The notes: a model not told the origin generated them from the sequence alone. Shown: positions 2,757 through 32,210, counted from the first letter of the stretch. The stretch is 32,210 nt of DNA from Candidatus Micrarchaeota archaeon (GCA_964462345.1 CAYWXC010000001.1:1-32210); one strand, 5' to 3'. Numbers and translations are program-made.

Positions 2757-3364
2757 TGACTGAGCTCTCTAACAAGCCCATGAGGGGCAGCTTCCTTGAA
2801 TGTCTGTGAATGGAATTTGTAGATAGCTACATCATGCGATTTCCAAAGGTGCTTCTCAAGTCCAGCCCCAACGCACAGCTCATTGAGCAATTCTTCTATT
2901 CCAAATCCCTTATCAATAGCTTCCATTGGCAGGATGACATTGCTATTGTAACCATATTTGAGCATGAGCCCATCCCTGCCTATCTTAATGGCCTTTTTAA
3001 TATCCTCAGCCTTTCCTGCTATCTTCATTGGTCTTGTCAGCAGGCTGACTTCAACAACCATCTCATCAAATTCTAGGTGGGATATCGGTACATGTTTAGG
3101 ATCTTCAGTAGATGCCGCTATTGCAGCTTCGGGAAGCATCCTCTTGATCTTCCCTATTGGCCTCAAGAATCCCATCCTTCCCCTCGGGCTTCCTGTAGGA
3201 TAATGCTCTATGCTTACAAAAATTCCTATCTCATCATCAAATTCGGAGAGCCTTCTCTCTATTAATCTGATATTGAATATTGGCGAAGATATGAATAACT
3301 CTATCGAATTCCTGGCTTCACGCACAAGCTTTTCGCCTTCTTCAACCGAGAACCTCCTCATCAT
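2753..3364 (-). CDS. AMMECR1-domain protein
   Basis: 203 aa. The GIFVSIEHYP...PRGRMGF, EDPKHVPIS, EVSLLT, GRDGLML and NVILPMEA...LCVGAGL pattern follows the AMMECR1 consensus (G.FVT...LRGCIG...DPRF.P...VSvLt...G.hGl...LLPqVa). The usual Cys of RGCIG is Arg here. Confidence 0.7.
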   Translation of the reverse strand: MMRRFSVEEGEKLVREARNSIELFISSPIFNIRLIERRLSEFDDEIGIFVSIEHYPTGSPRGRMGFLRPIGKIKRMLPEAAIAASTEDPKHVPISHLEFDEMVVEVSLLTRPMKIAGKAEDIKKAIKIGRDGLMLKYGYNSNVILPMEAIDKGFGIEELLNELCVGAGLEKHLWKSHDVAIYKFHSQTFKEAAPHGLVRELSH

Positions 3365-3398
3365 CTCACTATCCTAAACATTCAAAGGTATTTAATAT

Positions 3399-4694: not shown

Positions 4695-5045
4695 ACTCTC
4701 TCCCCGATAGTATTGGCTGCTAAATTTATTAATATTGGTATCTTATCATGGGTCCTTTTGCTAGCGCCTTCTATACTTCCTATAAACCAAATATCCAAGA
4801 TTTCCTAGCAATAAAGAGATAAGGACCAGATATATAATTTCAGACATTGCAAAAGCAGCGTACAGCAACGAGAGGAGTACGCCATAAAGTATCTCTATTT
4901 ATTATTCGGGATGTTTTGGCTCCAATCAACATAACAAATGCAAAATAATAGTTGACCGAAGATATTGGGGCGATTAACTCTCCATGCGAAGCAGCATCTC
5001 TAGAAATAACAAAACTCAATGCGATGCTTACGAAAAGAATGAATG

Positions 5046-5154
5046 TGGGCCCGAGGAGATTTGAACTCCCGTCCTCCCGATTTCTGCCATTCGATTAAAC
5101 TTTCAAAAAAGTTTATATCAGTCGGGTGCTCCAACCAGGCTAAGCTACAAGCCC
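5046..5154 (-). tRNA. tRNA-Ile (anticodon GAU) with a ~34-nt intron at the canonical 37/38 position
   Basis: Minus-strand read: GGGCTTG TA GCTT AGCCTGGTTG GAGC A CCCGA CTGATA [TAAACTTTTTTGAAAGTTTAATCGAATGGCAGAA] A TCGGG AGGAC GGGAG TTCAAAT CTCCT CGGGCCC. The acceptor pairs with two G-U pairs. G18G19 and a T-loop TTCAAAT are present. The anticodon stem CCCGA/TCGGG only forms after removing the insert. No CCA is encoded. Confidence 0.75.
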
Positions 5155-9955: not shown

Positions 9956-10026
9956 AGCCAGGAAAGGGAGTTGAACCCCTCTAAGCCGCTCTGCAGGCGG
10001 CTGCATAGCCGATCTGCCACCCTGGC
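9956..10026 (-). tRNA. tRNA-Cys (anticodon GCA)
   Basis: Minus-strand read: GCCAGGG TG GCAG ATCGGCT ATGC A GCCGC CTGCAGA GCGGC TTAG AGGGG TTCAACT CCCTT TCCTGGC T. The cloverleaf closes with a G13:A22 mismatch in the D stem. No intron and no encoded CCA. Confidence 0.8.
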
Positions 10027-20702: not shown

Positions 20703-21305
20703 TAGGGAGTTGACATCTACATTCAATCACCTCGTCAATACCAAAACTCTCACATCACGTATCTTATCACATATGCGAGAAGACAAGAAAATACATAGAT
20801 TGAAACCCTTTTCAGACCCACAAACCTGTTCTTTGCCATTCCAAAGACCTCTTTGAGTCTTGAGAAAATACGTTCTATTGCCCACCTCTTCCCGTAATCT
20901 GGATCTTTTGGCGTTTCTGATTTTCTCCACCGCCTTCCGTTTCTGGATATGAGAGGAACTATTCCGCATCCCCTACATTCTTCTTTTATGTCAGCAGAAT
21001 CATATGCAGAGTCTGCAAGATACTTTGCATGGTAGCTGAAAGCAAATGTCTCCCCAACATACCCAAAAATTTTTGCAAACAGTGTCTTGTTATGTTTGCA
21101 GGTTCTATAGAGAACCCTAAAGGTATTTCGTGCTCAACCTCTGCCATTATGTGTATCTTGTATCCGAATCCGAGGACCTTTGCCTTTTCCTTGAAATCTT
21201 CCTGTTCCCTTTTTGACGGTGTTCTGTGTTCTCACCTTGCGGTCATTGCCGCTAGGTCGGAGGAATTAACATAGTAGTTCTTATCTAAAAGGGCGTTATT
21301 TTCAA
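20703..21305 (-). mobile_element. 5'-truncated, decayed IS4/IS5-superfamily element (transposase relic plus one terminal repeat)
   Basis: Hand translation of the minus strand gives ...NSSDLAAMTAR*EHRTPSKREQ..KVLGFGYKIHIMAEVEHEIPLGFSIEPANI, then a frameshift, then DKTLFAKIFGYVGETFAFSYHAKYLADSAYDS...DYGKRWAIERIFSRLKEVFG...YVIRYVM*. It carries the Y-2-R-3-E-6-K signature. The terminal 36 nt (20703-20738) match the end of the element at 25904-26965 at 33/36 positions, in inverted orientation. Confidence 0.7.
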
Positions 21306-21365
21306 TGGGTTTTTAACCAAAAGATTTAAATATCTTATTCTTCACTTATTTATTGCTGGTTTTAG

Positions 21366-21384
21366 AAAACTTTATAAAAGTTTT
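21366..21384 (+). promoter_or_regulatory. Palindromic TATA region upstream of tfb
   Basis: AAAACTTTATAAAAGTTTT is a perfect 19-bp palindrome centred on the TATA-like TTTATAAAA, ~54 nt upstream of the ATG. A GGTGGT Shine-Dalgarno-like element lies at 21418-21423. Confidence 0.4.
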
Positions 21385-21428
21385 TACAGAAAAGCGCAAT
21401 CATATTTAAAATTCAATGGTGGTTAAGA

Positions 21429-22439
21429 ATGGCAGACAAGAAGATTAAAAAACATGCCAAGAGAGTTTTGGGCGAAGGTCAATTTGAGGAAGATCAGAGA
21501 GGCCAAAGAGGAGCACAGCCATCCCCAACAGAGAATGTAAGACGATGTCCTAGCTGTAAGAGCCTTGATATAATATTTGATAATGAAAGAGGAGAGTACA
21601 TATGCAACAGTTGTGGTCTTGTAATAGAAGAGAATATAGTAGATTCAGGACCAGAGTGGAGAGCATTTGATTCTGACCAGAGAAATGCAAGAGCAAGAAC
21701 TGGTGCTCCGATAAAATACACAAAGCCAAACAGAGGGCTTGTGACAGAAATTGATATGTATAACAAGGATATCAGAGGAACGAAGCTGCCATCGAAGAGG
21801 CAGGCACAGCTCTACAGAATGAGAAAATGGCACAAGAGAGCAAGCATAGCAAACTCCAGCGAGAGAAACTATCTTGTAGCATTGCCAGAATTGAACAGAG
21901 TAGCAAGTTATCTTGGTTTGCCAGACAATATCAGAGAACAGGCTGCGCTTCTTTATAGACAGTGTGTAAAGAATAACCTTATCAGAGGCAGACCTATCGA
22001 GACAGTAGTAAACGCTGCATTGTACGCAACATGCAGGAGTGCAGGAATGCCCAGAACACTTGATGAGATATCTTCAATATCAAACGTTCCGAAGAAAGAG
22101 GTTGGTAGGACATACAGAGTAATAACACACGAACTAGGACTGAAGATACCACTCACAGACCCATCAGCATATGTGCCAAGGTACATAGCTGCATTGAAGC
22201 TCAGCGGAGATGCGCAGGAAAAAGCGTCCGTGCTTCTTAAGCAGGCAATGAAGAAAGGCCTTGTAAGCGGAAGGAGTCCGACAGGAGTATCTGCTGCTGC
22301 AGTTTACATTGCAGGAGCCTTGGTTGGTGAGAGAAGAACCCAGAAAGAAGTGGCGGATGTGGCAGGAGTCACAGAAGTCACTATCAGAAATAGATATAGA
22401 GAGCTTAAGAAAGAACTTGAGCTTGACGTGAATCTCTGA
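21429..22439 (+). CDS. tfb: Transcription initiation factor IIB (TFB)
   Basis: 336 aa. Zn-ribbon CPSCKS...CNSCG, a B-reader/linker region (GPEWRAF...), and two cyclin-fold repeats. The C-terminal HTH reads QKEVADVAGVTEVTIRNRYREL. Confidence 0.93.
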   Translation: MADKKIKKHAKRVLGEGQFEEDQRGQRGAQPSPTENVRRCPSCKSLDIIFDNERGEYICNSCGLVIEENIVDSGPEWRAFDSDQRNARARTGAPIKYTKPNRGLVTEIDMYNKDIRGTKLPSKRQAQLYRMRKWHKRASIANSSERNYLVALPELNRVASYLGLPDNIREQAALLYRQCVKNNLIRGRPIETVVNAALYATCRSAGMPRTLDEISSISNVPKKEVGRTYRVITHELGLKIPLTDPSAYVPRYIAALKLSGDAQEKASVLLKQAMKKGLVSGRSPTGVSAAAVYIAGALVGERRTQKEVADVAGVTEVTIRNRYRELKKELELDVNL

Positions 22440-22452
22440 TTAGAGGGAGAAG

Positions 22453-22896
22453 ATGGATAAGAGGGTTTTTATCTCCCTTTTCTTCCTTATTTCTATTCCT
22501 TTTGCAGCGCATGCCATTAATTCTGGCATATCTGCGAACAACTATACATTCCATGATGCTAATTCAATAATAAATAGCACTGAGCAGTACATACACCAGA
22601 TTAACGAGAGCGGCTATCTATTTATCAATCCAGATTTAAGTTCTGCTTACAGTTATCTTGACAAGGCAAAGGCTATAGCCCACTATTCACCAGTAGCGGC
22701 AATATCCTATGCAAATCAGGCAGAAGATTCTGCTGCATCTGCATACGCATACATACGATCTTTTTATGAATACGCGCTATTAGGAATAACATTGTTTACT
22801 TTAGCCATGGCTGTGCTTCTTTACAGATTCATGAAGCCAGTAAATACCACTAAAGACATTAAACGAAGAAAGTCTGCTAAGAAGAAAACTAGATAA
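22453..22896 (+). CDS. Secreted, C-terminally membrane-anchored protein, unknown function
   Basis: 147 aa. An N-terminal signal peptide (FISLFFLISIPFAAHA), a C-terminal TM helix (ALLGITLFTLAMAVLLYRF), and a basic tail (KRRKSAKKKTR). Confidence 0.5.
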   Translation: MDKRVFISLFFLISIPFAAHAINSGISANNYTFHDANSIINSTEQYIHQINESGYLFINPDLSSAYSYLDKAKAIAHYSPVAAISYANQAEDSAASAYAYIRSFYEYALLGITLFTLAMAVLLYRFMKPVNTTKDIKRRKSAKKKTR

Positions 22897-23893
22897 CCGC
22901 ACTCTCGGTAAGCTCAAAGCTTTGTTCTGCCATGTTTGCAGATATCCTTGCATTTATACCATAAGGAATGGTAAACATTGGCGTTGTATGTCCGAAATCC
23001 ATACCTGAAATAATAGGGAAGTCATATCCTTTTGTTGCCTCTATTATTATTTTATCAAGAGGGTAATTTTGGTCATCTGTTTTATACTCAAGGTCATTTG
23101 TTCTTCCAACAATCATGCCTTTAATCTCATCCAAGATTCCAAGCATCTTCATTTGGTGCAGGGATCGGTCTGTCAGTGCCGTTGTGCTTTCTGTATCCTC
23201 CCAGAATAATATCTTATCTGAGAAATCTGGAAGATACTCAGTTCCTGCCAAATCAAGAAATGTAAATATGTGACCTCCGACAAGCTTCCCTTCTGCGCTG
23301 CCCTCCTTTAGAGTCTTCCAAGCAGTAGCATAGAGCTTATCTTCTGGAATCTCAAGCTCCCTTAGAAATGTGAATCTGCTTGAAGGCATTATTTTTAATC
23401 GGTCATTTTTCTCGGTGAGCACCTTATTGAAGTAGTTCAAAGTGTATCCAGGATCTTCTCCGGGAAGTGCAAATCGCGTATTGAGGTTCGGACCATAAAA
23501 TGTTGCCAGCCCTGTTTTTGTGTGTATTGCGCAATGGAGGAAAGTTATGTCACTGAAGCCGCAGAATATTTTGGGGTTCTTTCGGATTATGTTGTAATCT
23601 ATGGAATCGAGTAGCTCGTTTGAATTATAACCACCTCTGGCTGTTATTATGGCCTTGATTTCCTTGTTTTCAAACATCTCCATCAGATCAGCAAGGCGTT
23701 CTTCTGAAGTGCCAGCTTTATGCCCAAGGTCCTTGTTATAATTTCTGCCAAAATGTACCTTGTAACCCATCGATTCAAGCTGTCTAACTTTGAGATTTAC
23801 AAGATCTAATCTGTTCTTTGTTAGGGGAGAAGCTGGAGTTATGACACCTATTGTATCTCCTTTCTTCAGAGATTCTGGCTTGATAACCTCCAT
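22889..23893 (-). CDS. Peptidase S66 family (LD-carboxypeptidase LdcA / MccF-like)
   Basis: 334 aa. GDTIGVITPASP, ARGGYNSNELL, the nucleophile context CGFSDITFLH, the Glu context ILFWEDTES...DRSLHQM, and the His context MDFGHTTPMFTIPYG. Confidence 0.85.
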   Translation of the reverse strand: MEVIKPESLKKGDTIGVITPASPLTKNRLDLVNLKVRQLESMGYKVHFGRNYNKDLGHKAGTSEERLADLMEMFENKEIKAIITARGGYNSNELLDSIDYNIIRKNPKIFCGFSDITFLHCAIHTKTGLATFYGPNLNTRFALPGEDPGYTLNYFNKVLTEKNDRLKIMPSSRFTFLRELEIPEDKLYATAWKTLKEGSAEGKLVGGHIFTFLDLAGTEYLPDFSDKILFWEDTESTTALTDRSLHQMKMLGILDEIKGMIVGRTNDLEYKTDDQNYPLDKIIIEATKGYDFPIISGMDFGHTTPMFTIPYGINARISANMAEQSFELTESAVI

Positions 23894-23932
23894 ACAAGAT
23901 CAATTTTTACATTAGATGGAACATCTAAAATA

Positions 23933-25216
23933 CTACCTGCGGATTATATCTCCATATGTAGCTTTGAATAAGCTTGCAGAGATGTTTTGCATTGCTTCTT
24001 CTAGGCTCTCAGTCTTTGATGTTGAAGCTACTTCCACACCATTCCTGTAGTCTTTTGCTGGCACGTACAGTGACATAGCACGCCTTAAGCGTTCATCTTC
24101 AGTCATGGCGCTGATCTTTTGGGATGGAAATATCTGAGATAATATAGAATATAGTATCTCGCTTTCCCGTACGCTATGCCATGCATTATTAAGATCGAAA
24201 ATGGGCATCAATATTCCAAGCTCTCTTTTAAGCGCGTTTTCAAGACCTTGCGCTTCTTCGGGAAAATATTTCTCAGTAGCCCCATATCTCTGTGTGAAGA
24301 TTACCTTATCAGATAATGCCAACGTGAAGAGAGCTAAAGGATATCCATATCTTGGAGTTAGAGTTGCCCTTACCGAATTATTTATGATATCTTCAGGAGT
24401 AATTAGCGCTCCTCCGTTTTGCTGAAAGCCTCTTTCTGCCATGCTCTTCCTAAGCAATGTGCTTCTACCGGATGAATCTATCACACGTATCTCTGGCACA
24501 ATGTACCCGTTTGCTAATAACTCCTTTAACACATCGCTATATAGCCCATTTATTGAATTTCCACCGCTTTCAGATACGATATTCCTTGATATTGCCCTAT
24601 GAAAATCTACAAGAGAAATTCCATTGCTTGAAGGACCCCTTGCAAAACCTGAAGGTAGATCATTCTCAAAGACACGCTCTATTCTCGCCTTAAGTCCGGC
24701 CTGAATTGGCTGAAGATGTTGCAAAGCTATTTGTACTCCTTCTTGCGGCTTTCCTACCCCTATGCTAAATACTCTTTCACCATTTGGTACTACTATTGTA
24801 AAATAAGATGATTTCTCAACGCTCAGGCAAGTCATATCATCAATAGTGTATGTTGCTATTGCGGCTCTGGAGGAATAACCTTCTTTATTAAGCATCTCTG
24901 AAAGGACATTTCCCACAAGCTGGAAAACAACATTCTCAAATCTAGGAGTCGCTATCTGCCGGGCATACAATATGCTAGTCTCGCCTGGCTTGATTAAGCC
25001 ATGATCAGCGGCTATTTCTTCAATCCTGTTTATAGTTAGTGGTATATTGCTCTGCTCTAGAAATCTGTCTGAAACTTCTGCAACTGCTCCGCTCCTTTTC
25101 AGCCTCAAAAGTGCTGCCATCTCACCGAATTCAGAGTAAAAATGTCTAGCCGCATGAGATCCATCTTTGAAACTAGACCTGGCTGGCTCTCTATTCAATC
25201 GCACATTAGCTGCCAT
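23933..25216 (-). CDS. Hypothetical protein (427 aa), no recognisable motif
   Basis: A long uninterrupted ORF, co-directional and tightly spaced with its neighbours: 11 nt from the upstream gene and 39 nt to the S66 peptidase gene. No P-loop, Rossmann or metal-binding signature was seen by eye. Confidence 0.6.
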   Translation of the reverse strand: MAANVRLNREPARSSFKDGSHAARHFYSEFGEMAALLRLKRSGAVAEVSDRFLEQSNIPLTINRIEEIAADHGLIKPGETSILYARQIATPRFENVVFQLVGNVLSEMLNKEGYSSRAAIATYTIDDMTCLSVEKSSYFTIVVPNGERVFSIGVGKPQEGVQIALQHLQPIQAGLKARIERVFENDLPSGFARGPSSNGISLVDFHRAISRNIVSESGGNSINGLYSDVLKELLANGYIVPEIRVIDSSGRSTLLRKSMAERGFQQNGGALITPEDIINNSVRATLTPRYGYPLALFTLALSDKVIFTQRYGATEKYFPEEAQGLENALKRELGILMPIFDLNNAWHSVRESEILYSILSQIFPSQKISAMTEDERLRRAMSLYVPAKDYRNGVEVASTSKTESLEEAMQNISASLFKATYGDIIRR

Positions 25217-25227
25217 GCAATCACGTA

Positions 25228-25635
25228 TTAAAATGAAAGTTTAGAGCCTCTGGCAGTACTGCCAAATGCACGAACTTTATCTAATTCGGCAGAAACTGCC
25301 GCGTCAAGATCTTTAATGCTACTCCCACTGTTTAATGCATTTTCTGCAGCGCTATTTCTTGCTTGTGAAGCAGCAGCGTTTGCAGATTCTGCAACTGCAG
25401 GGATACCAACATTATAAGTTGCTAGGCGTTCATACCATCTCGCAGCAGTACCAAAGAATACTGCAGAATTAAAGAGTTGGCCTTCGGCTTGCGCTTTTAT
25501 GGCCTTTGATATATATGACTCGGCCCTGTCTGCGATATTATTGTCAGAAATTATCTGAAACCCATTTCTATCTACTTTTATATATTCTCTTTCTTGAGCC
25601 TTTGGCTCTTTTAAAATAATACCCATATAAATCAC
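25228..25635 (-). CDS. Hypothetical small helical protein with an Ala/Ser-rich C-terminal half
   Basis: 135 aa, first gene of the 25635-22889 minus-strand unit. An alternative start is the ATG three codons in (MGIILKE...). Confidence 0.5.
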   Translation of the reverse strand: MIYMGIILKEPKAQEREYIKVDRNGFQIISDNNIADRAESYISKAIKAQAEGQLFNSAVFFGTAARWYERLATYNVGIPAVAESANAAASQARNSAAENALNSGSSIKDLDAAVSAELDKVRAFGSTARGSKLSF

Positions 25636-25903
25636 TTTACAAACTTTAATCTGAATTAGAAAAACAAATCACAGCGGCAAACGCCGCATTTAGTTCCATT
25701 TTATAAAAAGAGTATTGTTGGGTCTATTGACCCAATATCTGAATAAGGATAAGATTAACATTACTAATGCAAGAATAAACATTATCTGCTTTGAATGAAA
25801 TCTGCATAATTTAATTATTTTATTACAGTTATTTAAAGCTTTTCTTCAAAGTGGGGTGTCCCACAACTCCTTAAAAACTTCCACTAATCCCGAAGGATTA
25901 TAA

Positions 25904-26965
25904 TAAGAACTTGACAAATTAATAATCTTATTGTTGAATATGTTCATTGGAGTTTTCTCTCTCTTTTCTGTCGTCGGAAATTGGTAGTGGAGAGTCTCCT
26001 GAGCAACAGATGCAACGAGCGCATCAGTCGCCTGCCAGGAGAAAGACAACATGGAAATATATGAGATAAAGACTAAAATAGTAGAGGTTTGGGCAGCTGC
26101 ACGGATGATCGTGCAGAAGTATGGACATATGAAGAAATTCGCGAAACATATAGTTGCACTTGTGATAAAACAGAACGAGAACTTAAGAGATATCAAACTC
26201 GCAGAGTTCTTGGAGAAGATTCGATTGGCAAAATCCTTGGTTATCGGAAGAAACCAGACACAACGACATTCTCCAAGGTTAGGGAACGTATGGATCCGCA
26301 GATGATGGAAGATCTGCAACTGTGGATTGTTTCAGATCTTCTGAAAGGAAGGCAGGCGAGGTTAATCGCGCAGGACAGTACCGATGTACCTACATATTCG
26401 CAGAAAGACAAGGAAACAAGATGGGGCATAGAACACCTTCTAGAACGGAACAACTACTGTATAAGTCGGATAAAGGCAAGGAGAAGAAATTCTTCTACGG
26501 GTACAAACCACACATGGTTGTTGATGTGGAAACAGATACGCCAATTGCGGTAATGGTAGTTCCAGCAAACATTAATGACAAAAAACTCTTCGAACCTTTG
26601 TATGAGAAAAAGAGGTAGATTGCAGTATTGCAATACCTCGCAAAGTTCCTTGCTGATGCACAGTACCACTCTTCAAAGATAAGGGCCAGACTCAGGAATG
26701 ATGGCGTAACTCATATCATTCCTTTCAATGGGAATCGGTGGCAGAAGACAGAAAAGCCAAATGATCCTGAATATGGGAAAAGATGGGCTGTTGAGCGCGT
26801 CTTCTCAAGGCTGAAGGGGATTTTCGGTCTTGGATTCAACAGGTTTTTTAGCTTCAGAAAGGCCAGGATCCATTCCCTTTCCTGCGTGATCGGATATCTC
26901 CTCAGATACAATATGTGAAGGTTTTGGATTTGACGAGGTGATTGAATGTAAATGTCAAGTTCCTA
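25904..26965 (+). mobile_element. IS4/IS5-superfamily insertion sequence, full length (~1.06 kb) but with a decayed transposase
   Basis: Terminal inverted repeats TAAGAACTTGACA (25904-25916) and TGTCAAGTTCCTA (26953-26965) match at 12/13. The internal transposase reading frames carry DDE and YREK motifs. No target duplication could be recognised. Confidence 0.75.
26051..26918 (+). pseudogene. DDE transposase (IS4/IS5 type) broken by at least two frameshifts and one in-frame TAG
   Basis: Frame 2: ...KLAEFLEK. It shifts at ~26220 to frame 1: ILGYRKKPDTTTFSKV...LIAQDSTDVPTYSQKDKETRWG. It shifts again in the G-run at ~26428 to frame 0: GHRTPS...FFYGYKPHMVVDVETDTPIAVMVVPANINDKK...KKR. TAG at 26616-26618 is followed by ...FLADAQYHS...YGKRWAVERVFSRLKGIFG. 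Confidence 0.75.
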
Positions 26966-27025
26966 CCTTTTAGAGCTCAAGAAAGCCTTTTAATAACAAA
27001 ACCCCAAGTACATTAGAGGGATTCT

Positions 27026-28009
27026 ATGACCTTCGAAAGTGAGAATGATTGGAGAGACGAGATTGCTGATGTCATAATAAAGATAGCGAATCTCATCTCA
27101 TACCTCATATTATTTGAGCTTGATATAGCTATCAAGAGCCAGGGCATACTTGCAAAGGTGTACATGAAGTTGGAGAGCCAGAAAGTAGAACGTGAAGTGG
27201 CTCCTTACATTGGTGCTGTGGTGTTTCTATCATTCAACGGTAAAGAAGTTACCAGAAATAATATAATACCTATAATCAAAGCTGTAGGAATTGAGCCTAG
27301 CGGCAATTACCTGGATTTTGTTTCGTCTCTCAACCTTAAGAATAATATAATCGCATACGCACCAGCAGTATACTTCCTTAAGGTTGTTAGGAAGGATGTG
27401 AATCTTGGAAATTTAATGAAGGTAATAAGTGCCATGGGGATATCTCCTGATGAGGAGATAGGAAGGTATGTTCTTGATGTATACTCCAACTCTGAGAAAC
27501 GGGCTGAAGAGCCTCCAATCACCAAGACCGAAGAGAAGTTCATGAAGATGACAAAATCTGCAGCCATACTGATGGGCAAAGTCATGATAACAGAGCTTGA
27601 CAGAACTTTTGAGCATAATGATATAGAAGAGCATATCAAAAATGGTTTCATACCTTATTTAGCTGCTGTTGGAACCTTGGTTTACGCTGGTAAAGACATC
27701 AATATAATAGGCAGCGAAAAGTTTAATGCGTACATAAGCAATATGATTTCGGCTGTGGGATTCACCATTGATAAGTCGATGCTTGAGTACATATCCTCGT
27801 TCAACTATGGGAACTCTGGATTCTCGTACATATCTGGAATATATTATCTTATAACCGTAGACAAAGAGTTGACCTTGGATAACCTTGTTACAGTTGTCAG
27901 GTCTCTTGGATTGCAGGCTGACGAAGCCCTTGCAGGGTACATACTTACTATCTATAAAGATTACACAAAGAATGAGTTTGGGACAAAAGTCAATAATAAC
28001 CATTCTTAA
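27026..28009 (+). CDS. Protein with four tandem modules resembling the N-terminal domain of archaeal ribosomal stalk protein P1 (L12); the last ~10 codons are IS-derived
   Basis: 327 aa. R1 (61-102) YIGAVVFLSFNGKEVTRNNIIPIIKAVGIEPSGNYLDFVSSL. R2 (111-152) YAPAVYFLKVVRKDVNLGNLMKVISAMGISPDEEIGRYVLDV. R3 (211-258) YLAAVGTLVYAGKDINIIGSEKFNAYISNMISAVGFTIDKSMLEYISS. R4 (268-310) YISGIYYLITVDKELTLDNLVTVVRSLGLQADEALAGYILTIY. Compare the archaeal P1 pattern Y.YAAL.L...GKEI.E.N....L.AAGVE.DE.R...LV.AL. There is no acidic C-terminal tail. Confidence 0.55.
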   Translation: MTFESENDWRDEIADVIIKIANLISYLILFELDIAIKSQGILAKVYMKLESQKVEREVAPYIGAVVFLSFNGKEVTRNNIIPIIKAVGIEPSGNYLDFVSSLNLKNNIIAYAPAVYFLKVVRKDVNLGNLMKVISAMGISPDEEIGRYVLDVYSNSEKRAEEPPITKTEEKFMKMTKSAAILMGKVMITELDRTFEHNDIEEHIKNGFIPYLAAVGTLVYAGKDINIIGSEKFNAYISNMISAVGFTIDKSMLEYISSFNYGNSGFSYISGIYYLITVDKELTLDNLVTVVRSLGLQADEALAGYILTIYKDYTKNEFGTKVNNNHS

Positions 28010-28912
28010 ATATGTTATGAAGCACAGCGATGTAGCTAATCGCGGTATCGATTCTTTCGTCTAGTTTTTGCCACAGTTTCAATCCAAATGCACGTTTATC
28101 AACAGAGAAACCACTCTCGGATCTCTCTCGTTGATAGTAATGAACAAGGTATTGCAATAGATATGACATCATTTGTCTGGATATATCCCTCCATTTAGAT
28201 GATCCATTCACCATCGTATTGCTTTTTGGTATGATGTACAGGATTGTTTCATCATCAAAGCACTTCGGGGTGGAGTGGTAACTGTAGTACCTGTCAAGTC
28301 GTGCGCTGTTAACTTTTATGCCTGACGCTTTTTCTACAGATTCAACATCTTTATTGCGTTATCGAACGCTTCTTTCTCCGAGCTTATCCCAGAATTGTAA
28401 CAGACGTACAATCCTGTTTTTATATCGATAAGCTTCGTCACTGTCAATCTGAAGTCAGCGCCGTCGCCATTCACATCAACTTTTCTACCACAGCTACGTT
28501 TTACTGAGAGAACTAACATATTGTGCATCACCATTCTAACAATGTCATCCTAATATAGCCTTTCAATTGTTTTATAGTAGATGTCGACTCCACAAAACGC
28601 ACCGAAAAGCGACATCAACCCTTCCACCTCGAAAATGGACTTCAAGAGGAGTGCTACTACCTTCTGTTGCAGAGAAAGTTTAGCGGGTCTTCCAAAACAA
28701 GATATATTTACATGTATTATATATACAGCTGATTTTGCAAGGGAATTCGGTTCCCTTGCTACGTATCTTATTTGTTCCGCGTATTCTTTCTCGTATCCCT
28801 TCCAATCCGTAAGATTCTTTGTCAACGTTTTACTGTAAATTTCCATAATGACCTTGAACTCTTTGAATAACCTTCGGAATTGTCTATTCGTTAACCTTTT
28901 GTGTTTTGCCAT
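27990..28912 (-). pseudogene. DDE transposase fragmented into at least three reading frames
   Basis: ORFs 28912-28550, 28534-28334 and 28214-27990, plus my read-through of 28330-28215 (...KASGIKVNSARLDRYYSYHSTPKCFDDETILYIIPKSNT MVNGSSKW...), line up as one gene. The C-terminus HYYQRERSESGFSVDKRAFG...AVLHNI carries Y-2-R-3-E-6-K. Confidence 0.6.
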
Positions 28913-28972
28913 CGCAAGACTATCGGATAGAAAGATATTTAAATATATATTTAATATATATTAAATGATACG

Positions 28973-29140
28973 ATGAAAAAGATAGCTCTCAATAAGAGAA
29001 CAGAATTAAAAGTTCACGGAATTGTCGGATTCATGATAAGAAAAGTAACACCGTTTGGGACTGGTGCAAAGGTAGACTGCCCAAAAGAATACATAGGAAA
29101 AGAAGTTTACCTAATCGTCACTAATAGAAAGATCGATTAA
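28973..29140 (+). CDS. Small IS-associated protein (55 aa), resembling the archaeal 'putative transposon-encoded protein' (DUF2080) family
   Basis: Hand translation: MKKIALNKRTELKVHGIVGFMIRKVTPFGTGAKVDCPKEYIGKEVYLIVTNRKID*. The VTPFG.GAKVD.PKEYIGK.VYLI core matches my recollection of DUF2080. It is too short for the supplied ORF track. Confidence 0.5.
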   Translation: MKKIALNKRTELKVHGIVGFMIRKVTPFGTGAKVDCPKEYIGKEVYLIVTNRKID

Positions 29141-30078
29141 CTACTTTTGTCCCAGAGTCAGGCTCTGTTCCAATCGGAGACTGGTGAAATAGACGACACA
29201 AACCGCTAATTGTTTCGTCGCCTCTTTTATCAAGAATTTCCATCTCTTTTTCTCGGTATTTGCATCAAGATAGTCCATGAGTCCTGCTTTCTCTGCAGGC
29301 GTCATCTTAATTGCAGAATGCCGTCGGATGAAGTTGTAGTAAATAAACAACAGACCAAATTGGACGGCCCTCGTTATTGGATTCTTGAACCCTCTTCTCT
29401 GATGGGTCTTGCTCCTTACAAAATTCTGCAGTCTCTCTGCAAGATTATTATATTTCTTGTCCTCGAAATTCTTACATCTGTGTGTATGGTCATAGTACCA
29501 CTGTACTCCGAATATTTTCTTCAGAACCGCAGGATATTGGAACGCGCCGTCGAAAACCATTAGCAGCGCATTCATGAACTGCCCGATCAACTTTTCTGCA
29601 TCCTTCTTGCGTCTTGTCGGAGAAAAATAGAAGAATGCAAATCTTGTCTCTGCATCAATCGCATCCCACAAATAGAAGAATCGGCCCATCATTTTGAAGA
29701 AAAGTTCATCTATGTTTATCTTCTGAATTATAGTTGGCAAAAGTTTGAAGGTGAATCTACAGAGAAGTTTGCAATATTCGAAAACCCACCTTAAAATACT
29801 GTTTTTTTGAGACGTCTTCGTATATTGCAATGGTTCTCAGACTTGCCCCTCCGCCGACGTAAAGTCCCATACATCTGATTATTAATTCGGGAGCCTTCTG
29901 CTTATGTTTAAATCCGTCGTCAAAACAGAATCTCCTGCCACATTTTCTGCATAGGAACTTCTGTACCTTTCCCCTTTCTTTGGTGGTTCTCGTACCATCC
30001 TTTATTATCTGTGTCGATTTACAATATATACAACTGGCCGTTGTATCGCCTTTGTAACCGGTCGTTACTTATTGGCAT
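29141..30078 (-). pseudogene. IS6-family DDE transposase, interrupted by frameshifts
   Basis: The C-terminal 229-aa frame has DELFFKMMGRFFYLWDAIDAETRF (D), MVFDGAFQYP (D), YNNLAERLQNFVR (E) and YNFIRRHSAI. The Zn-ribbon/HTH N-terminus (CIYCKSTQIIKDG...QKFLCRKCGRRF...LRTIAIYEDVSKK) lies in another frame. The junction is the A7 run at 29803-29809. The Zn-ribbon frame has no start codon, and the only upstream ATG (30078) is in a third frame. Confidence 0.7.
29153..29160. repeat. Left copy of the IS6 target site duplication (CAGAGTCA)
   Basis: Identical octamer directly abutting the IS6 left inverted repeat. Confidence 0.85.
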
Positions 30079-30123
30079 ACAACGATTCAGTCTAAATCAT
30101 CAGCCGTTATTTGGGACAGAGCC
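29161..30123 (-). mobile_element. IS6-family insertion sequence (963 bp) with intact ends and an 8-bp target site duplication
   Basis: The ends are GGCTCTGTTCCAAT... (29161->) and ...ATTTGGGACAGAGCC (->30123). Read inward they are GGCTCTGT(T/C)CCAA, close to the IS6/IS26 consensus GGCACTGTTGCAAA. The element is flanked by identical CAGAGTCA at 29153-29160 and 30124-30131. An 8-bp TSD is the IS6-family hallmark. Confidence 0.85.
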
Positions 30124-30131
30124 CAGAGTCA
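30124..30131. repeat. Right copy of the IS6 target site duplication (CAGAGTCA)
   Basis: Identical octamer directly abutting the IS6 right inverted repeat. Confidence 0.85.
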
Positions 30132-30174
30132 CCAATTACAATATGTTTATATATCAAGAAAAAGAAAATTATCC

Positions 30175-30969
30175 TTGATGAGTAGCATAACACAAAGGGC
30201 CACTACCAAGGCGGAACCTCTTATAAGTATTCAAAGAGTAGGTACAGATGGTAGGAGGTTTAGTGGCAATTTTGATCTCAGGAACATTGCCTACACCCAA
30301 GAGCTCATTAGGGAGGCCGTAGCTGCGTCATGGTCTAAAGCGCTTTCAGAACTGCCTAAAGATAAGGCTGATAGAATAATATCAAAGTTAAACGAGATGA
30401 GTCCAGGCACTGCTGAAAGGTCCAGGACCACATTTAAGGTAACTCCAACTGTCTATCTTATAGGTGGGATGGCAGTCGCATCATATGCACTAGCGACAAT
30501 TTCAGCCATTAATAATGTTGATTCAAATGCACAATTAATCAAAAGCGCAACCACAAGAGGGTCTGATGATCTTGATCTTGTCTGTTTACCTGATCTCTTA
30601 GGGAATGTAACTGTTCCAGGATATTCTTCTATTAAAACATATGAAAGGAATTTAGTAAGGCACATTCCTTCTGTTACTGTTATAGGGGCTCTTAGTTCTG
30701 AAAACGCTTCAATTCTCCCATATCTAGACATATACAGCCCGCATGGAAAGTCTAGGGCAAGATCCATGAATGGAGAGGTATTCCCAATATCTAGCATCAG
30801 ATATACCTTTTCGTTAACTTTTGGAGATGTTACAATCCAGGTAGCTCCAATTGAAGCACTGATGGCAATGAAGCGCATAGCATCTGCAGAAGGCTCTGGC
30901 AGAACCGATAAAGATAGAGAAAAGGACGCGCGCGATCTTACTGCCCTAACTGCGATACAGCGTAGATAA
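30175..30969 (+). CDS. Pol-beta-fold nucleotidyltransferase, AbiEii/DUF1814/MenT-like
   Basis: 264 aa. YLIGGMAVASYA...TRGSDDLDLVC (GG...R.S.DxD), a later YLDIYSPHG, and C-terminal APIEALMAMKRIASAEGSGRTDKDREKDARDLTAL (the K..A...R....KD..D pattern). The likely start is the ATG at 30178. The frame is open upstream to 30058, inside IS6. Confidence 0.5.
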   Translation: MMSSITQRATTKAEPLISIQRVGTDGRRFSGNFDLRNIAYTQELIREAVAASWSKALSELPKDKADRIISKLNEMSPGTAERSRTTFKVTPTVYLIGGMAVASYALATISAINNVDSNAQLIKSATTRGSDDLDLVCLPDLLGNVTVPGYSSIKTYERNLVRHIPSVTVIGALSSENASILPYLDIYSPHGKSRARSMNGEVFPISSIRYTFSLTFGDVTIQVAPIEALMAMKRIASAEGSGRTDKDREKDARDLTALTAIQRR

Positions 30970-30999
30970 TCAGATATTTAATACACAGAGAGGATAATC

Positions 31000-31587
31000 A
31001 TGGCCGAAATCAAGAGAGGAATTGCTTATTATTCAGTTGATGTAGAGACAGCTGGACCATCACCGCTAGTACATAGTATGCTTGCCCTAGGTGCAGTTTA
31101 TATTGATGACTTAGAAAAAAAAGAGTTTTATGTGGAACTAAAGCCCACATCAAACAAGTCTGATCCCAAAGCTTTGAAAGTCAATGGCTTTGATTTATCA
31201 AAACTTATGATTACCGGTCAGGAGCCTGAATCTGCCATGCTCTCATTTTCGGACTGGGTTAAAAAGACCTCTGGCGGTAAAAGGCCTGTTTTCGTTTCGT
31301 ACGGAACATTCGATTGGATGTTTGTGCAGGCTTATCTTTCAAAGTATACTGGAGAGATGCCATTTGGACCTAATGGACTGGACCTAAAATCTTTTGGCAT
31401 GGGCGTACTCAATCTTGAAACGTGGCGGGATACCACAGAGCAAAGGATAATGGATCTGGTAGGATTGAAGAGAGATCCTTTAAATATAGCGCATAATGCC
31501 TTACATGATGCAAGAGAACAAGCAAGACTATTCAATCTATTGCAAGATCTTAGGTCCAAACAACCGAGTACAAAATTAAGAGCATAA
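31000..31587 (+). CDS. DEDDh 3'-5' exonuclease (DnaQ/RNase T superfamily, Rv2179c-like by eye)
   Basis: 195 aa. ExoI YSVDVETAG, ExoII VSYGTFDWMFV, ExoIII HNALHDAREQARLF. Confidence 0.8.
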   Translation: MAEIKRGIAYYSVDVETAGPSPLVHSMLALGAVYIDDLEKKEFYVELKPTSNKSDPKALKVNGFDLSKLMITGQEPESAMLSFSDWVKKTSGGKRPVFVSYGTFDWMFVQAYLSKYTGEMPFGPNGLDLKSFGMGVLNLETWRDTTEQRIMDLVGLKRDPLNIAHNALHDAREQARLFNLLQDLRSKQPSTKLRA

Positions 31588-31639
31588 ATGACCTATTTGA
31601 CTACATGCATTCATGTTTCTATATTAATCAAGTGTGATT

Positions 31640-32210
31640 ATGGCGTCATTAAAAGATGAGGGTCGTGTACCATCTCCCGACAATGTCCTGAATGAAGATG
31701 TGCATTCGCATTACAGTAATTCGGTTCTAAATGAGATAAATACATTTATCTTATCGACAGTCATGGCTCTTGGAGATATTGTTGAACAGAAGATAGCTCC
31801 TTCCAAAATTTCCTTTGTGAGTTTAGAAAATAATTTAGAGGAAGATGCAAAATATGATCCTAATAGCAAAATGCTAATAATCAACCTCAATGCAATATTC
31901 AGGGAGGAAGAAGACAAAAGTATCTTCAATTCCTATCTTAAGATAGCCATATCCCACGAGCTAACACATTATATTACTGATGTTTTGCACGAAAAGGCCT
32001 TTGAGTGGAGGAATATAAGTAAGAATGGAGCCGGGCCAGAAACTTTATTATTTTACATAAGCGATGAAGGTGCTCGCTGTGAGTTCATTGCTGGATTATT
32101 GTCTGGAAGTATAAATACTAAGAAGGGTCTGCATAAATTGATTGAAGATGTCAGCGAGTTAGGGTACAATGAGCAGACAAAGGAAATCTTTGTAGATCTT
32201 TTCAGAATTC
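31640..32210 (+). CDS. HExxH-motif protein (putative zinc metallopeptidase), 5' part only; runs off the window
   Basis: Hand translation from ATG 31640: MASLKDEGRVPSPDNVLNEDVHSHYSNSVLNEINTFIL...NSYLKIAISHELTHYITDVLHEKAFEW...EGARCEFIAGLLSG... It is open to the window end (190 codons). It is absent from the ORF track because no stop lies in the window. Confidence 0.5.
   Translation, partial: MASLKDEGRVPSPDNVLNEDVHSHYSNSVLNEINTFILSTVMALGDIVEQKIAPSKISFVSLENNLEEDAKYDPNSKMLIINLNAIFREEEDKSIFNSYLKIAISHELTHYITDVLHEKAFEWRNISKNGAGPETLLFYISDEGARCEFIAGLLSGSINTKKGLHKLIEDVSELGYNEQTKEIFVDLFRI

What the first reader, a model, noticed from the sequence alone, without database searches (positions are those of the whole stretch)
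27026..32210. IS-split four-gene cluster: stalk-P1-like repeat protein, AbiEii/MenT-like nucleotidyltransferase, DEDDh exonuclease and HExxH protein (candidate undescribed conflict system)
Four same-strand ORFs (27026-28009, 30175-30969, 31000-31587, and 31640 to the window end) become contiguous once the two abutting IS insertions at 27979-30131 are removed. The remaining gaps are then only 30 and 52 nt.

Components read from the translations:
- (i) Four tandem ~42-aa modules resembling the dimerisation domain of archaeal ribosomal stalk protein P1.
- (ii) A Pol-beta-fold nucleotidyltransferase with the GG...R.S.DLDL and C-terminal K..A...R...KD..D pattern of AbiEii/DUF1814/MenT toxins.
- (iii) A DEDDh exonuclease.
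- (iv) An HExxH protein.

AbiEii/MenT enzymes are established toxins. MenT-type members block tRNA aminoacylation by nucleotidylating tRNA acceptor stems. They are normally paired with an AbiEi/MenA-type antitoxin, and I see none here.

I know of no described system with this composition. The setting, between three different IS families, is typical of defence/conflict islands. The cluster may continue beyond the window.
Basis: partly seen in the sequence, partly recalled or inferred. Interest (0 to 1): 0.8.

Follow-up and report, generated by a model that had tools for sequence, protein, structure and literature searches.

The report
Cap18-like exonuclease operon in Micrarchaeota
A tiny archaeon (Micrarchaeota) carries a three-gene operon joining a Cap18-type exonuclease, known from bacterial CBASS antiviral systems, to two orphan proteins, one with nucleotidyltransferase-like motifs; it may be a "write-and-erase" nucleotide module, but the proposed four-gene defence system is not supported as such.

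Summary
The sequence-level observation holds. There are four same-strand ORFs, gaps of 30 and 52 nt, and two IS elements (27973-29160 and 29161-30123) between genes 1 and 2.

- Gene 3 is a DEDDh exonuclease of the Cap18/CBASS "Exo" family (PDB 7T2S E=4e-32; PADLOC PDLC00753 E=6e-49).
- Gene 1 does contain four ribosomal-stalk P1 N-terminal-domain-like modules (module profile vs 3A1Y, E=2e-7). It lacks the P1 tail. Its two homologues sit next to unrelated genes, and it is truncated in the sister lineage. Its DNA divergence from that lineage also differs from that of genes 2-4 (90% vs 77% identity). It is a neighbour, not a component.
- Gene 2 is an orphan. An exhaustive HMMER search of 1.84 billion representatives found only its own cluster. 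Its AbiEii-like motifs are colinear but not statistically supported, and AlphaFold2 failed on it.
- Gene 4 has an HExxH motif and no family match.
- The surroundings are housekeeping genes, not a defence island.

In 80 other genomes, Cap18-like exonucleases usually sit beside nucleotidyltransferases or candidates: CBASS in 24 loci, an unannotated ~440-aa protein in 26, and AbiEii in 3.

Best reading (confidence about 0.4): a lineage-specific NTase-like/exonuclease/HExxH operon that works as a writer-eraser pair.

The parts
30148..30155 (+). TATA-like element (TTTATATA), 23 nt before the ATG at 30178. Candidate promoter of a leaderless genes 2-4 transcript.
   Evidence: Read from the sequence. 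The block 'tacaatatgtttatatatca' is the first stretch shared by all three lineages upstream of gene 2. Promoter function is inferred from the usual archaeal TATA position near -26. It was not tested.
30175..30969 (+). Gene 2: orphan 263/264-aa protein with AbiEii/DUF1814-like motifs. These are IGG97-98, R128-x-S-x-D132-L-D134-L, YLD185IY, K233-x-x-A, and K250-D-x-x-D254.
   Evidence: ORF. Word-index search found only 3 clusters. Exhaustive HMMER against 1.84 billion representatives found only its own cluster. Pfam AbiEii E=0.0047, below the gathering score. PADLOC gave no hit. hhalign aligns the motifs at P=0.15. dN/dS against the relative is 0.36.
31000..31587 (+). Gene 3: Cap18-family DEDDh 3'-5' exonuclease, 195 aa. 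Catalytic residues D14, E16, D105, H165, D170. GAGG Shine-Dalgarno-like sequence 6-9 nt upstream.
   Evidence: PDB 7T2S E=4.3e-32 over residues 10-188. PADLOC PDLC00753 E=6.4e-49, profile positions 7-182 of 184. Pfam RNase_T and Rv2179c-like score above their cut-offs. The catalytic residues are invariant in the 17-sequence alignment. Upstream sequence.
31640..32210 (+). Gene 4, first 190 of 357 codons. It has an HExxH motif (HELTH, aa 106-110, nt 31955-31969). The C-terminal ~80 aa, beyond the window, are Lys/Arg/Glu-rich.
   Evidence: Translations. The orthologue is 68% identical and keeps HELTH. No match in Pfam, PADLOC, NCBIfam, PHROGs or PDB sequences. dN/dS 0.24.
27026..28009 (+). Gene 1, a neighbour and not part of the operon. 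It is a 327-aa all-helical protein built as 2 x (long helix + two P1-N-terminal-domain-like modules). The modules are at aa 58-107, 108-157, 207-265 and 266-316. There is no acidic or hydrophobic P1 tail. The last ~11 codons come from the IS.
   Evidence: TIGR03685 E=1e-8 (35 bits against a cut-off of 100). A 12-module profile hits P. horikoshii P1 (3A1Y) at E=2.3e-7. AlphaFold2 pLDDT 78.6, pTM 0.79. Homologues P0004 and P0005 lie in other contexts.
27973..29160 (.). Decayed IS with 18-nt terminal inverted repeats, a DUF2080 accessory gene (28973-29140, + strand) and a transposase broken into three ORFs on the minus strand.
   Evidence: (repeat pair I1).
29161..30123 (-). IS6-family element. 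Its inverted repeats are GGCTCTGTTCCAAT... and ...ATTTGGGACAGAGCC. The 8-bp target duplication CAGAGTCA lies at 29153-29160 and 30124-30131.
   Evidence: Sequence. PF13610. NF033587 E=7e-16.

Best explanation
Genes 2-4 form one lineage-specific operon of a Micrarchaeota (DPANN) clade, probably transcribed from a TATA-like element just upstream of gene 2.

The operon pairs a very divergent protein carrying Pol-beta/DUF1814-like nucleotidyltransferase motifs (the "writer") with a Cap18-family DEDDh exonuclease (the "eraser").
- The writer would add nucleotides, either to RNA 3' ends as MenT/AbiEii toxins do, or to form a short oligonucleotide.
- The exonuclease would remove or degrade that product. 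This would keep the activity below a harmful or signalling threshold.
- The HExxH protein would be a third, regulatory or effector, component.

Gene 1, the tail-less tandem P1-like protein, is an independently evolving neighbour. The IS elements are recent insertions that do not disrupt any of the three operon genes.

Shown: gene order, the identity of the exonuclease, the IS structure, the separate history of gene 1, and purifying selection on all three operon genes.
Inferred: co-transcription, the nucleotidyltransferase activity of gene 2, the writer-eraser relationship, and any role in conflict.
For: 1. Same strand, gaps of 30 and 52 nt, a Shine-Dalgarno-like GAGG before gene 3, and TTTATATA 23 nt before the gene 2 ATG.
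2. The trio is kept in order in two further lineages at 68-74% aa identity. dN/dS is 0.24-0.36, so these are real genes that evolve faster than housekeeping neighbours (0.03-0.04).
3. The exonuclease belongs to the Cap18 family.
4. Among 80 genomes with such an exonuclease:
   - 24 have it in type III-like CBASS next to a CD-NTase.
   - 26 have it next to a conserved ~440-aa protein with a GS-x10-DxD signature.
   - 3 have canonical AbiEii genes within 2 kb. One of these is an overlapping AbiEi-AbiEii-exonuclease operon.
   A nucleotidyltransferase neighbour is therefore the commonest context for this exonuclease family.
5. Gene 2 carries the four DUF1814 motifs in the right order. HMMER and hhalign place them on the matching AbiEii positions.
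6. There is precedent for an exonuclease undoing a DUF1814 toxin. RNase PH overexpression suppresses MenT3 toxicity, and deleting rph increases it (PMC7450476).
7. There is precedent for Cap18-type enzymes controlling an NTase through its product. CBASS Exo degrades the 2'-5' linear intermediate of bacterial cGAS (bioRxiv 10.1101/2025.03.04.641389).
Against: - Gene 2 has no statistically supported homology to any NTase. Evidence: Pfam below threshold; no PADLOC AbiEii model; orthologues without any Pfam hit; hhalign P=0.15; AlphaFold2 pLDDT 31.
- A second AbiEii-like string, RRFSGNFDL at aa 27-35, is not conserved. This shows that such motif matches can arise by chance.
- The trio is conserved only among close relatives in which flanking genes are syntenic too, so conserved order says little about function.
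- In the nearest outgroup Micrarchaeota (L021, exonuclease 49% identical) the exonuclease stands between a thioesterase and an unrelated 351-aa protein.
- 27 of the 80 loci show none of the three scored contexts (CBASS, N440, AbiEii).
- Short intergenic gaps are expected in compact DPANN genomes (this point rests on general knowledge).
- The surroundings are housekeeping genes.
- The NTase nature of the ~440-aa family is also only motif-level.
Confidence: 0.4

Rival explanations
1. Unrelated neighbours. The exonuclease is a stand-alone housekeeping or repair 3'-5' exonuclease of Micrarchaeota. It happens to be flanked by two fast-evolving lineage-specific orphan genes. There is no system, and the tight spacing reflects a compact genome.
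For: - The sister-clade exonuclease in L021 is solitary.
- 27 of 80 Cap18-like loci show none of the three scored contexts (CBASS, N440, AbiEii).
- Genes 2 and 4 have no detectable homologues or family assignment.
- The window consists of housekeeping genes.
- Borgs of Methanoperedens also carry a Cap18-like gene without other CBASS parts (PMC11208441).
Against: - 53 of 80 loci place this exonuclease family next to an NTase or NTase-like partner.
- Gene 2 shows colinear AbiEii-type motifs.
- All three genes are retained under purifying selection in three lineages, while IS activity and a deletion remodelled the sequence immediately upstream.
Confidence: 0.38
2. A four-gene conflict system in which the P1-like repeat protein, an AbiEii/MenT toxin, the DEDDh exonuclease and the HExxH protein act together, for example by targeting or mimicking the ribosomal stalk and tRNA.
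For: - Gene 1 was ancestrally only about 42 nt upstream of gene 2.
- Gene 1 is P1-like, and MenT-type toxins act on translation.
Against: - Both other known homologues of gene 1 have unrelated neighbours. P0004 is followed by a convergent 328-aa gene, then NFACT-R_1 and pyrophosphatase. P0005 is followed by two KaiC-like ATPases.
- The sister lineage keeps genes 2-4 but only a 78-aa stub of gene 1.
- The gene 1 5' end shares the 90-94% identity of the block upstream. Genes 2-4 and downstream genes are 74-78% identical, so a recombination boundary lies between genes 1 and 2.
- No AbiEi/MenA antitoxin is present. No PADLOC system component other than the exonuclease was found.
Confidence: 0.07
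3. A degenerate CBASS-like signalling module. Gene 2 is an extremely divergent CD-NTase-type signal synthase. The Cap18-like exonuclease sets its activation threshold by cleaving a 2'-5'-linked intermediate. The HExxH protein is the effector or a CapP-like protease regulator.
For: - The only biochemistry reported for the Cap18 clade is cleavage of 2'-5' linkages made by cGAS-like enzymes.
- 24 of 80 loci are CBASS.
- A 2H-phosphoesterase (CPDase) gene lies three genes (about 1 kb) downstream in all lineages.
Against: - No SMODS/CD-NTase, SAVED, HORMA, TRIP13 or Cap17 signal was found in gene 2, gene 4 or the neighbours.
- The motifs of gene 2 resemble DUF1814 (R-x-S-x-D-x-D, K...[KR]DxxD) rather than CD-NTases.
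- The window exonuclease branches outside the CBASS clades.
Confidence: 0.12

Closest known systems
Cap18 / CBASS-associated "Exo" (E. coli upec-117 Cap18, PDB 7T2S)
   Same: - Same family by sequence: E=4e-32 to 7T2S, about 40% identity over 179 residues, and a full-length match to the PADLOC exonuclease model PDLC00753.
- All DEDDh residues are present and the size is similar.
   Different: - There is no CD-NTase, HORMA/TRIP13, Cap17 or other CBASS gene nearby.
- It is archaeal (Micrarchaeota) and branches in its own clade apart from the CBASS-linked enzymes.
- Substrate specificity is unknown.
AbiE / MenAT type IV-VII toxin-antitoxin systems (AbiEii, MenT1-4; DUF1814 NTases)
   Same: - Gene 2 has a similar size (263 aa).
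- It shows the four motif positions in order: GG, R-x-S-x-D-L-D-L, an acidic strand, and K-x-x-A...KDxxD.
- A bacterial AbiEi-AbiEii-Cap18-like operon exists (L049).
- A 3'-exoribonuclease can counteract MenT3.
   Different: - No significant profile match was found.
- There is a ~20-aa insertion between GG and the DxD, and a ~90-aa N-terminal extension.
- No AbiEi/MenA-type antitoxin gene is present.
- The fold is not confirmed.
Archaeal ribosomal stalk protein P1 (aP1/L12P; P. horikoshii P1 N-terminal domain in 3A1Y)
   Same: Each of the four modules of gene 1 aligns with the P1 N-terminal dimerisation domain (Y-x-x-A-x-x-L...GKE[IV]...[AV]GhE). The module profile gives E=2.3e-7.
   Different: - There are four modules in one chain, each pair preceded by a long helix.
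- There is no hinge and no conserved C-terminal factor-binding tail.
- It scores far below the TIGR03685 cut-off (35 against 100 bits).
- Only three family members were found.
Exonuclease + ~440-aa partner two-gene module (unannotated; seen here in 26 genomes)
   Same: A Cap18-like exonuclease lies directly adjacent to, and often overlaps, a gene for a protein with a GS...DxD signature and no database annotation.
   Different: The ~440-aa partner shows no similarity to gene 2 or gene 4 of the window. It usually lies downstream of the exonuclease rather than upstream.

Membership tests
AbiEii / DUF1814 / MenT nucleotidyltransferase toxins | Significant match to the family profile (PF08843 at or above its gathering score, or the PADLOC AbiEii models) | tested here: not met
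   - PF08843 gives 17.3 bits against a cut-off of 22.5, E=0.0047, covering aa 203-258 only.
- None of the PADLOC AbiEii models hits at E<=1. A canonical AbiEii from L049 hits 29 of them.
- Orthologues P0002 and P0003 give no Pfam hit at E<=10.
AbiEii / DUF1814 / MenT nucleotidyltransferase toxins | Four conserved motifs: Pol-beta motifs I and II, then the C-terminal motifs III and IV (motif IV is unique to DUF1814) (PMC7450476) | tested here: inconclusive
   - Candidate motifs are present, colinear and conserved in the three orthologues.
AbiEii / DUF1814 / MenT nucleotidyltransferase toxins | Pol-beta nucleotidyltransferase fold | tested here: inconclusive
   AlphaFold2 with the only three available sequences gave pLDDT 31 and pTM 0.23, which is unusable.
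AbiEii / DUF1814 / MenT nucleotidyltransferase toxins | Adjacent cognate antitoxin (AbiEi/MenA type) | tested here: not met
   No AbiEi-like gene was found. Upstream lie the P1-like gene and the IS elements; downstream lies the exonuclease.
AbiEii / DUF1814 / MenT nucleotidyltransferase toxins | Growth inhibition that depends on the DxD aspartates; NTP transfer to tRNA 3' ends | not testable with these tools
   Needs expression and biochemistry.
Cap18 / CBASS Exo clade of DEDDh exonucleases | Full-length sequence similarity to Cap18 that is clearly stronger than to other DEDDh enzymes | tested here: met
   - 7T2S gives E=4.3e-32, against RNase T at E=1.6e-3 and PolC exo at E=4.8e-3.
- PDLC00753 gives E=6.4e-49, against the generic DEDDh model at E=8e-10.
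Cap18 / CBASS Exo clade of DEDDh exonucleases | Intact DEDDh catalytic residues | tested here: met
   D14, E16, D105, H165 and D170 are invariant across 17 homologues. They align with the corresponding motifs of 7T2S.
Cap18 / CBASS Exo clade of DEDDh exonucleases | Preference for 2'-5' phosphodiester linkages (bioRxiv 10.1101/2025.03.04.641389) | not testable with these tools
   Needs enzymology. The window enzyme branches outside the CBASS-linked clades in a rough NJ tree.
CBASS | CD-NTase (SMODS) cyclase plus a cyclic-nucleotide-activated effector in the same operon | tested here: not met
   No SMODS, SAVED, HORMA, TRIP13, Cap17 or E1/E2/JAB signal was found in the four proteins or in the precomputed Pfam calls for neighbours. 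True CBASS homologue loci do show them.
Archaeal ribosomal stalk protein P1 | N-terminal dimerisation domain | tested here: met
   There are four copies. The module profile hits 3A1Y at E=2.3e-7. TIGR03685 gives E=1e-8 summed over the repeats.
Archaeal ribosomal stalk protein P1 | Single domain, then a flexible hinge and a conserved C-terminal tail that recruits translation GTPases; equivalog score | tested here: not met
   - Homologues end at ...TIYKDYxK with no tail.
- It has 327 aa and four modules.
- It scores 35 bits against the 100-bit cut-off.
Zincin (HExxH) metallopeptidases | HExxH motif | tested here: met
   HELTH at aa 106-110 is conserved in the 68%-identical orthologue. With only two sequences, this conservation is weak evidence.
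Zincin (HExxH) metallopeptidases | Match to any peptidase family profile or structure | tested here: not met
   No hit in Pfam, NCBIfam, PADLOC or PHROGs, and no PDB sequence hit.

The most novel reading that the evidence does not exclude
The trio would be a self-contained "writer-eraser" toxin-antidote module of DPANN archaea.
- An ultra-divergent DUF1814-type nucleotidyltransferase would block translation by extending RNA/tRNA 3' ends.
- A Cap18-family exonuclease, rather than an AbiEi/MenA protein, would act as the antidote by enzymatically trimming the added nucleotides.
- The HExxH protein would control the balance between the two.

More broadly, Cap18-type exonucleases would be general partners of several unrelated NTase families (CD-NTase, AbiEii, the ~440-aa family and this orphan). 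That would define a class of product-erasing regulators.
Probability: 0.12. Interest if true: 0.75.

Novelty: new variant of a known kind. Interest (0 to 1): 0.42.

Why it matters
If the pairing is functional, it extends the Cap18 "product-erasing" exonuclease beyond bacterial CBASS. It would then operate in DPANN archaea, next to a nucleotidyltransferase-like protein that no current profile recognises. That would suggest an enzymatic-antidote route for controlling NTase toxins or signal synthases.

The survey also shows that most Cap18-like exonucleases outside CBASS sit beside an unannotated ~440-aa protein. This pair is a more widespread and more easily testable lead than the window cluster itself.

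The tail-less tandem P1-like protein is a separate curiosity for ribosome-stalk biology.

If the genes are merely neighbours, the locus is ordinary: a solitary exonuclease with two orphan genes and recent IS traffic.

Tried and rejected
- **Structure of gene 2.** AlphaFold2 with all available homologues (3 sequences) gave pLDDT 31. No fold search was attempted on it.
- **Remote homologues of gene 2.** The word-index search found 3 clusters. The exhaustive HMMER profile search of 1.84 billion representatives found only its own cluster. It therefore cannot be placed by sequence.
- **hhalign of the gene 2 profile.** Against one canonical AbiEii, five canonical AbiEii and the ~440-aa family, nothing was significant.
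- **Foldseek of the gene 1 model against PDB.** No match at E<0.001. The top hits were unrelated helical membrane proteins, so this was uninformative.
- **Gene 2, gene 4 and gene 1 profiles against neighbours of 80 Cap18-like loci.** Only the known relative was hit.
- **Scans for gene 1 and gene 2 relatives.** Nothing was found for either in IMG/VR viral contigs. Nothing was found for gene 1 in JGI metagenome contigs. A viral or mobile-element origin is therefore not indicated.
- **Defence-island idea.** PADLOC and Pfam on 27 other window ORFs returned housekeeping functions and one weak candidate hit.
- **Literature search for an AbiEii-DEDDh association.** The single paper found mentions the two terms in unrelated contexts.
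- **Possible ancestral in-frame fusion of genes 1 and 2.** Rejected. The relatives show a TAG stop directly before the shared 'TACAATATG' block. Homologues also end soon after KDYxK.

Full report
**Observation**

- Gene 1 is 27026-28009 (327 aa).
- Gene 2 is 30175-30969.
- Gene 3 is 31000-31587 (195 aa).
- Gene 4 starts at 31640 and runs off the window.

Seven public contigs carry the identical exonuclease gene in the same arrangement. They show that gene 4 is 357 aa. It is followed by a convergent sugar-nucleotidyltransferase gene, so the same-strand run ends there. The gaps are 30 and 52 nt.

The stretch between genes 1 and 2 consists of two insertion sequences.
- A decayed element spans 27973-29160. 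It has 18-nt terminal inverted repeats (pair I1), a DUF2080 transposase-associated gene and a transposase broken into three ORFs.
- An IS6-family element spans 29161-30123. Its 8-bp target duplication, CAGAGTCA, is the outer end of the first element.
- A third, IS5-like element lies at about 25852-26967.

**Organism and relatives**

The closest relatives are contigs L008-L012, with gene 2 at 74% aa identity. One of them is the GTDB representative titled "Candidatus Micrarchaeota archaeon LSA5.bin73". The window is therefore from a DPANN archaeon of that group.

These relatives have no IS at this site. There the first 74 codons of gene 1 (93% identical) are followed by a short unrelated tail and a TAG stop. 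The gene 2 start comes 42 nt later. The sister lineage, however, has lost three quarters of gene 1 while keeping genes 2-4 intact.

**Gene 1**

Gene 1 really is P1-like.
- NCBIfam's archaeal P1 model matches at E=1e-8, but at 35 bits against a cut-off of 100.
- A profile of the 12 modules from the three known family members hits the N-terminal domain of Pyrococcus P1 (3A1Y) at E=2.3e-7. That is by far the top PDB hit.
- AlphaFold2 gives a confident all-helical model: pLDDT 78.6, pTM 0.79. Each half is a long helix followed by two four-helix modules.
- The whole model has no significant Foldseek match in PDB.

The family ends just after ...TIYKDYxK, with no hinge or factor-binding tail. It is therefore not a stalk protein. 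The IS replaces only the last few residues in the window copy.

Four observations separate gene 1 from genes 2-4.
1. Its only other homologues have unrelated neighbours. P0004 (76% identity) is followed by a convergent 328-aa gene, then NFACT-R_1 and pyrophosphatase. P0005 (54%) is followed by two KaiC-like ATPases.
2. It is truncated in the sister lineage.
3. Its 5' end is 90% identical in DNA to that lineage, like the 94%-identical block upstream. Genes 2-4 and everything downstream are 74-78% identical, so a recombination boundary falls between genes 1 and 2.
4. TTTATATA lies 23 nt before the gene 2 ATG. It sits inside the first block shared by all three lineages upstream of gene 2. This is the expected position for an archaeal TATA box of a leaderless transcript. 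That reading is an inference from general knowledge of archaeal promoters.

**Gene 3**

Gene 3 is a Cap18-family exonuclease.
[quoted passage not shown] RNase T scores only E=1.6e-3.
- It matches the PADLOC model PDLC00753 ("Effector; Exonuclease") end to end at E=6e-49.
- The DEDDh residues are invariant.

What is reported about Cap18:
- Cap18 was named as an accessory gene of a type III CBASS (bioRxiv 10.1101/2022.01.04.474952).
- A 2025-26 preprint reports that CBASS "Exo" enzymes, including the E. coli one, cleave the 2'-5'-linked linear intermediate of bacterial cGAS and 2'-5' oligoadenylate. This sets an activation threshold (10.1101/2025.03.04.641389).
- A Cap18-like protein without other CBASS parts has also been noted as a core gene of Borgs (PMC11208441).

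**Gene 2**

This gene is the crux, and it stays unresolved.
- It is an orphan. The word-index search found three clusters at 72% identity or more.
- An exhaustive HMMER profile search of 1.84 billion representatives found only its own cluster.
- Pfam AbiEii hits the C-terminal 56 residues at E=0.0047, below the gathering score.
- The two orthologues give no Pfam hit.
- No PADLOC AbiEii model responds, whereas a genuine AbiEii from L049 hits 29 of them.
- AlphaFold2 on the three sequences failed with pLDDT 31.

By eye, and in forced alignments, the four DUF1814 motif positions described in PMC7450476 are present in order. They are VYLIGGMAVA, TRGSDDLDLV, YLDIY and PIEALMAMKRIA...KDARD. They fall on the corresponding AbiEii columns, but the statistics are not significant. 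A second AbiEii-like string at residues 27-35 is not conserved in the orthologues. This is a warning that such matches can arise by chance. I put the probability that gene 2 is a Pol-beta-fold NTase at roughly one half.

**Gene 4**

Gene 4 has HELTH at residues 106-110, kept in the 68%-identical orthologue. Its C-terminus is strongly charged. It matches nothing in Pfam, NCBIfam, PADLOC, PHROGs or PDB sequences.

**Are genes 2-4 a unit?**

They are retained in order in the related lineages. Their dN/dS values are 0.36, 0.27 and 0.24. That indicates purifying selection, but roughly ten-fold more relaxed than for TFIIB and the NTP-transferase next door. Because flanking synteny is also conserved among these close relatives, this does not prove functional linkage.

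The more informative test was a survey of 80 genomes with a Cap18-like exonuclease.
- 24 loci are CBASS: SMODS/HORMA/TRIP13, 20 of them with Cap17 directly upstream.
- 26 loci have an adjacent, often overlapping, gene for a conserved ~440-aa protein. It has no annotation anywhere and carries an "ALALSGS-AQSK-Q--PGD-D-F" (GS-x10-DxD) signature.
- 3 loci have canonical AbiEii genes within 2 kb. One, L049, is an overlapping AbiEi-AbiEii-exonuclease operon. In a rough NJ tree the exonucleases of these three loci fall in one small clade.
- 27 loci show none of these three contexts. They include L021, the nearest outgroup Micrarchaeota.

The window enzyme, its relative and L021 form their own clade. 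A nucleotidyltransferase or NTase-like neighbour is therefore the commonest context for this exonuclease family. This raises the prior that gene 2 is its partner.

**Mechanism**

The reading I commit to, at about 0.4, is a writer-eraser pair. The gene 2 protein would add nucleotides, and the exonuclease would remove the product. Two published precedents make this plausible.
- Overexpressed RNase PH, a 3' exoribonuclease, suppresses the toxicity of the DUF1814 toxin MenT3. Deleting rph aggravates it (PMC7450476).
- CBASS Exo restrains cGAS by destroying its intermediate.

Whether the product here is an extended RNA 3' end or a short oligonucleotide cannot be decided. The role of the HExxH protein is a guess.

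The main rival, at about 0.38, is that these are simply adjacent genes in a compact genome. Supporting points are the solitary exonucleases elsewhere and the housekeeping character of the window: an aminoacyl-tRNA synthetase, pyruvate kinase, prephenate dehydratase, ribosomal protein S3Ae, UDG, archease and TFIIB. PADLOC gave only one weak candidate hit among 27 other ORFs. No relatives of gene 1 or gene 2 were found on viral contigs.

**Verdict**

- The four-gene "system" shrinks to a possible three-gene operon.
- The toxin assignment is unproven, and the defence-island setting is not there.

As a system it would be a new variant of a known theme, an NTase plus a Cap18-type exonuclease. Interest is moderate. 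The widespread exonuclease/~440-aa pair found along the way may be the better lead.

Noticed in passing
L016:5001-6933, L018:5001-6919, L098:3828-5941 and 23 further loci among L022-L099: A conserved two-gene module occurs in 26 of 80 genomes, mostly Chloroflexota and Actinomycetota plus one Methanosarcinales MAG. It pairs a Cap18-like exonuclease with an adjacent, often overlapping, gene for a ~440-aa protein. That protein has no hit in Pfam, NCBIfam or PADLOC, and representatives checked have none in PHROGs or PDB sequences. Its invariant blocks include ALALSGS.AQSK.Q..PGD.D.F (a Pol-beta-like GS...DxD signature), PGWCKLDWV, NASN..DVTWE.PDG and NYGK.AKRMYN.FRL.
   Followed up: partly
L049:2844-6065: In a bacterial MAG, AbiEi (2844-3434), AbiEii (3431-4198) and a Cap18-like exonuclease (4182-4715) overlap one another as a single operon. 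A second AbiEi/AbiEii pair converges on it. This is the only clear case of a canonical AbiE pair with an added exonuclease gene. L030 and L067 have AbiEii genes within 2 kb of related exonucleases.
   Followed up: partly
window 27026-28009; L013:464-1429; L014:2-955: A three-member protein family is built as 2 x (long helix + two ribosomal-stalk P1 N-terminal-domain-like modules), without the factor-binding tail. AlphaFold2 is confident (pTM 0.79). One member is followed by two KaiC-like ATPase genes. The layout invites the idea of an internal mimic of a P0-helix:(P1)2 unit, which was not tested.
   Followed up: partly
window 21286-25851 and 26968-27246, compared with L008: Divergence from the sister lineage is mosaic. 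A 4.6-kb block (TFIIB, a 147-aa protein, peptidase S66, and 427-aa and 132-aa unknowns) is 94% identical in DNA, and the 5' end of gene 1 is 90% identical. Everything else is 74-78%. The block is inverted in the window between an IS5-like element (25852-26967) and an IS remnant (20703-20941). This suggests recent exchange followed by IS-mediated inversion.
   Followed up: partly
L004:3776-4321; L008:14459-14992 (beyond the window end): A 2H-phosphoesterase/CPDase-family gene (PF07823, weak 2_5_RNA_ligase2) lies three genes (about 1 kb) downstream of the trio in all lineages. It follows the convergent NTP_transferase gene and a 298-304-aa unknown. This could be relevant if 2'-5' linkages are involved, or it could be coincidence.
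   Followed up: no
window 5046-5154 (minus strand): Rfam finds a 109-nt tRNA (51 bits) that ARAGORN does not report. It is probably an intron-containing archaeal tRNA. ARAGORN reports only tRNA-Cys at 9956-10026.
   Followed up: no
L015:1-152: In a third lineage, the gene 2 orthologue (72% identical) is also preceded by the end of a DUF2080-carrying IS. The junction lies a few bases from the point where homology resumes in the window and in L008 ('tacaatatgtttatatatca'). The spot just upstream of gene 2 has therefore been hit or remodelled independently in all three lineages.
   Followed up: partly
window 23933-25635 (minus strand): A pair of unannotated genes (427 aa and 132-135 aa, no Pfam hit) lies inside the 94%-identical block. 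They are conserved together in all relatives.
   Followed up: no
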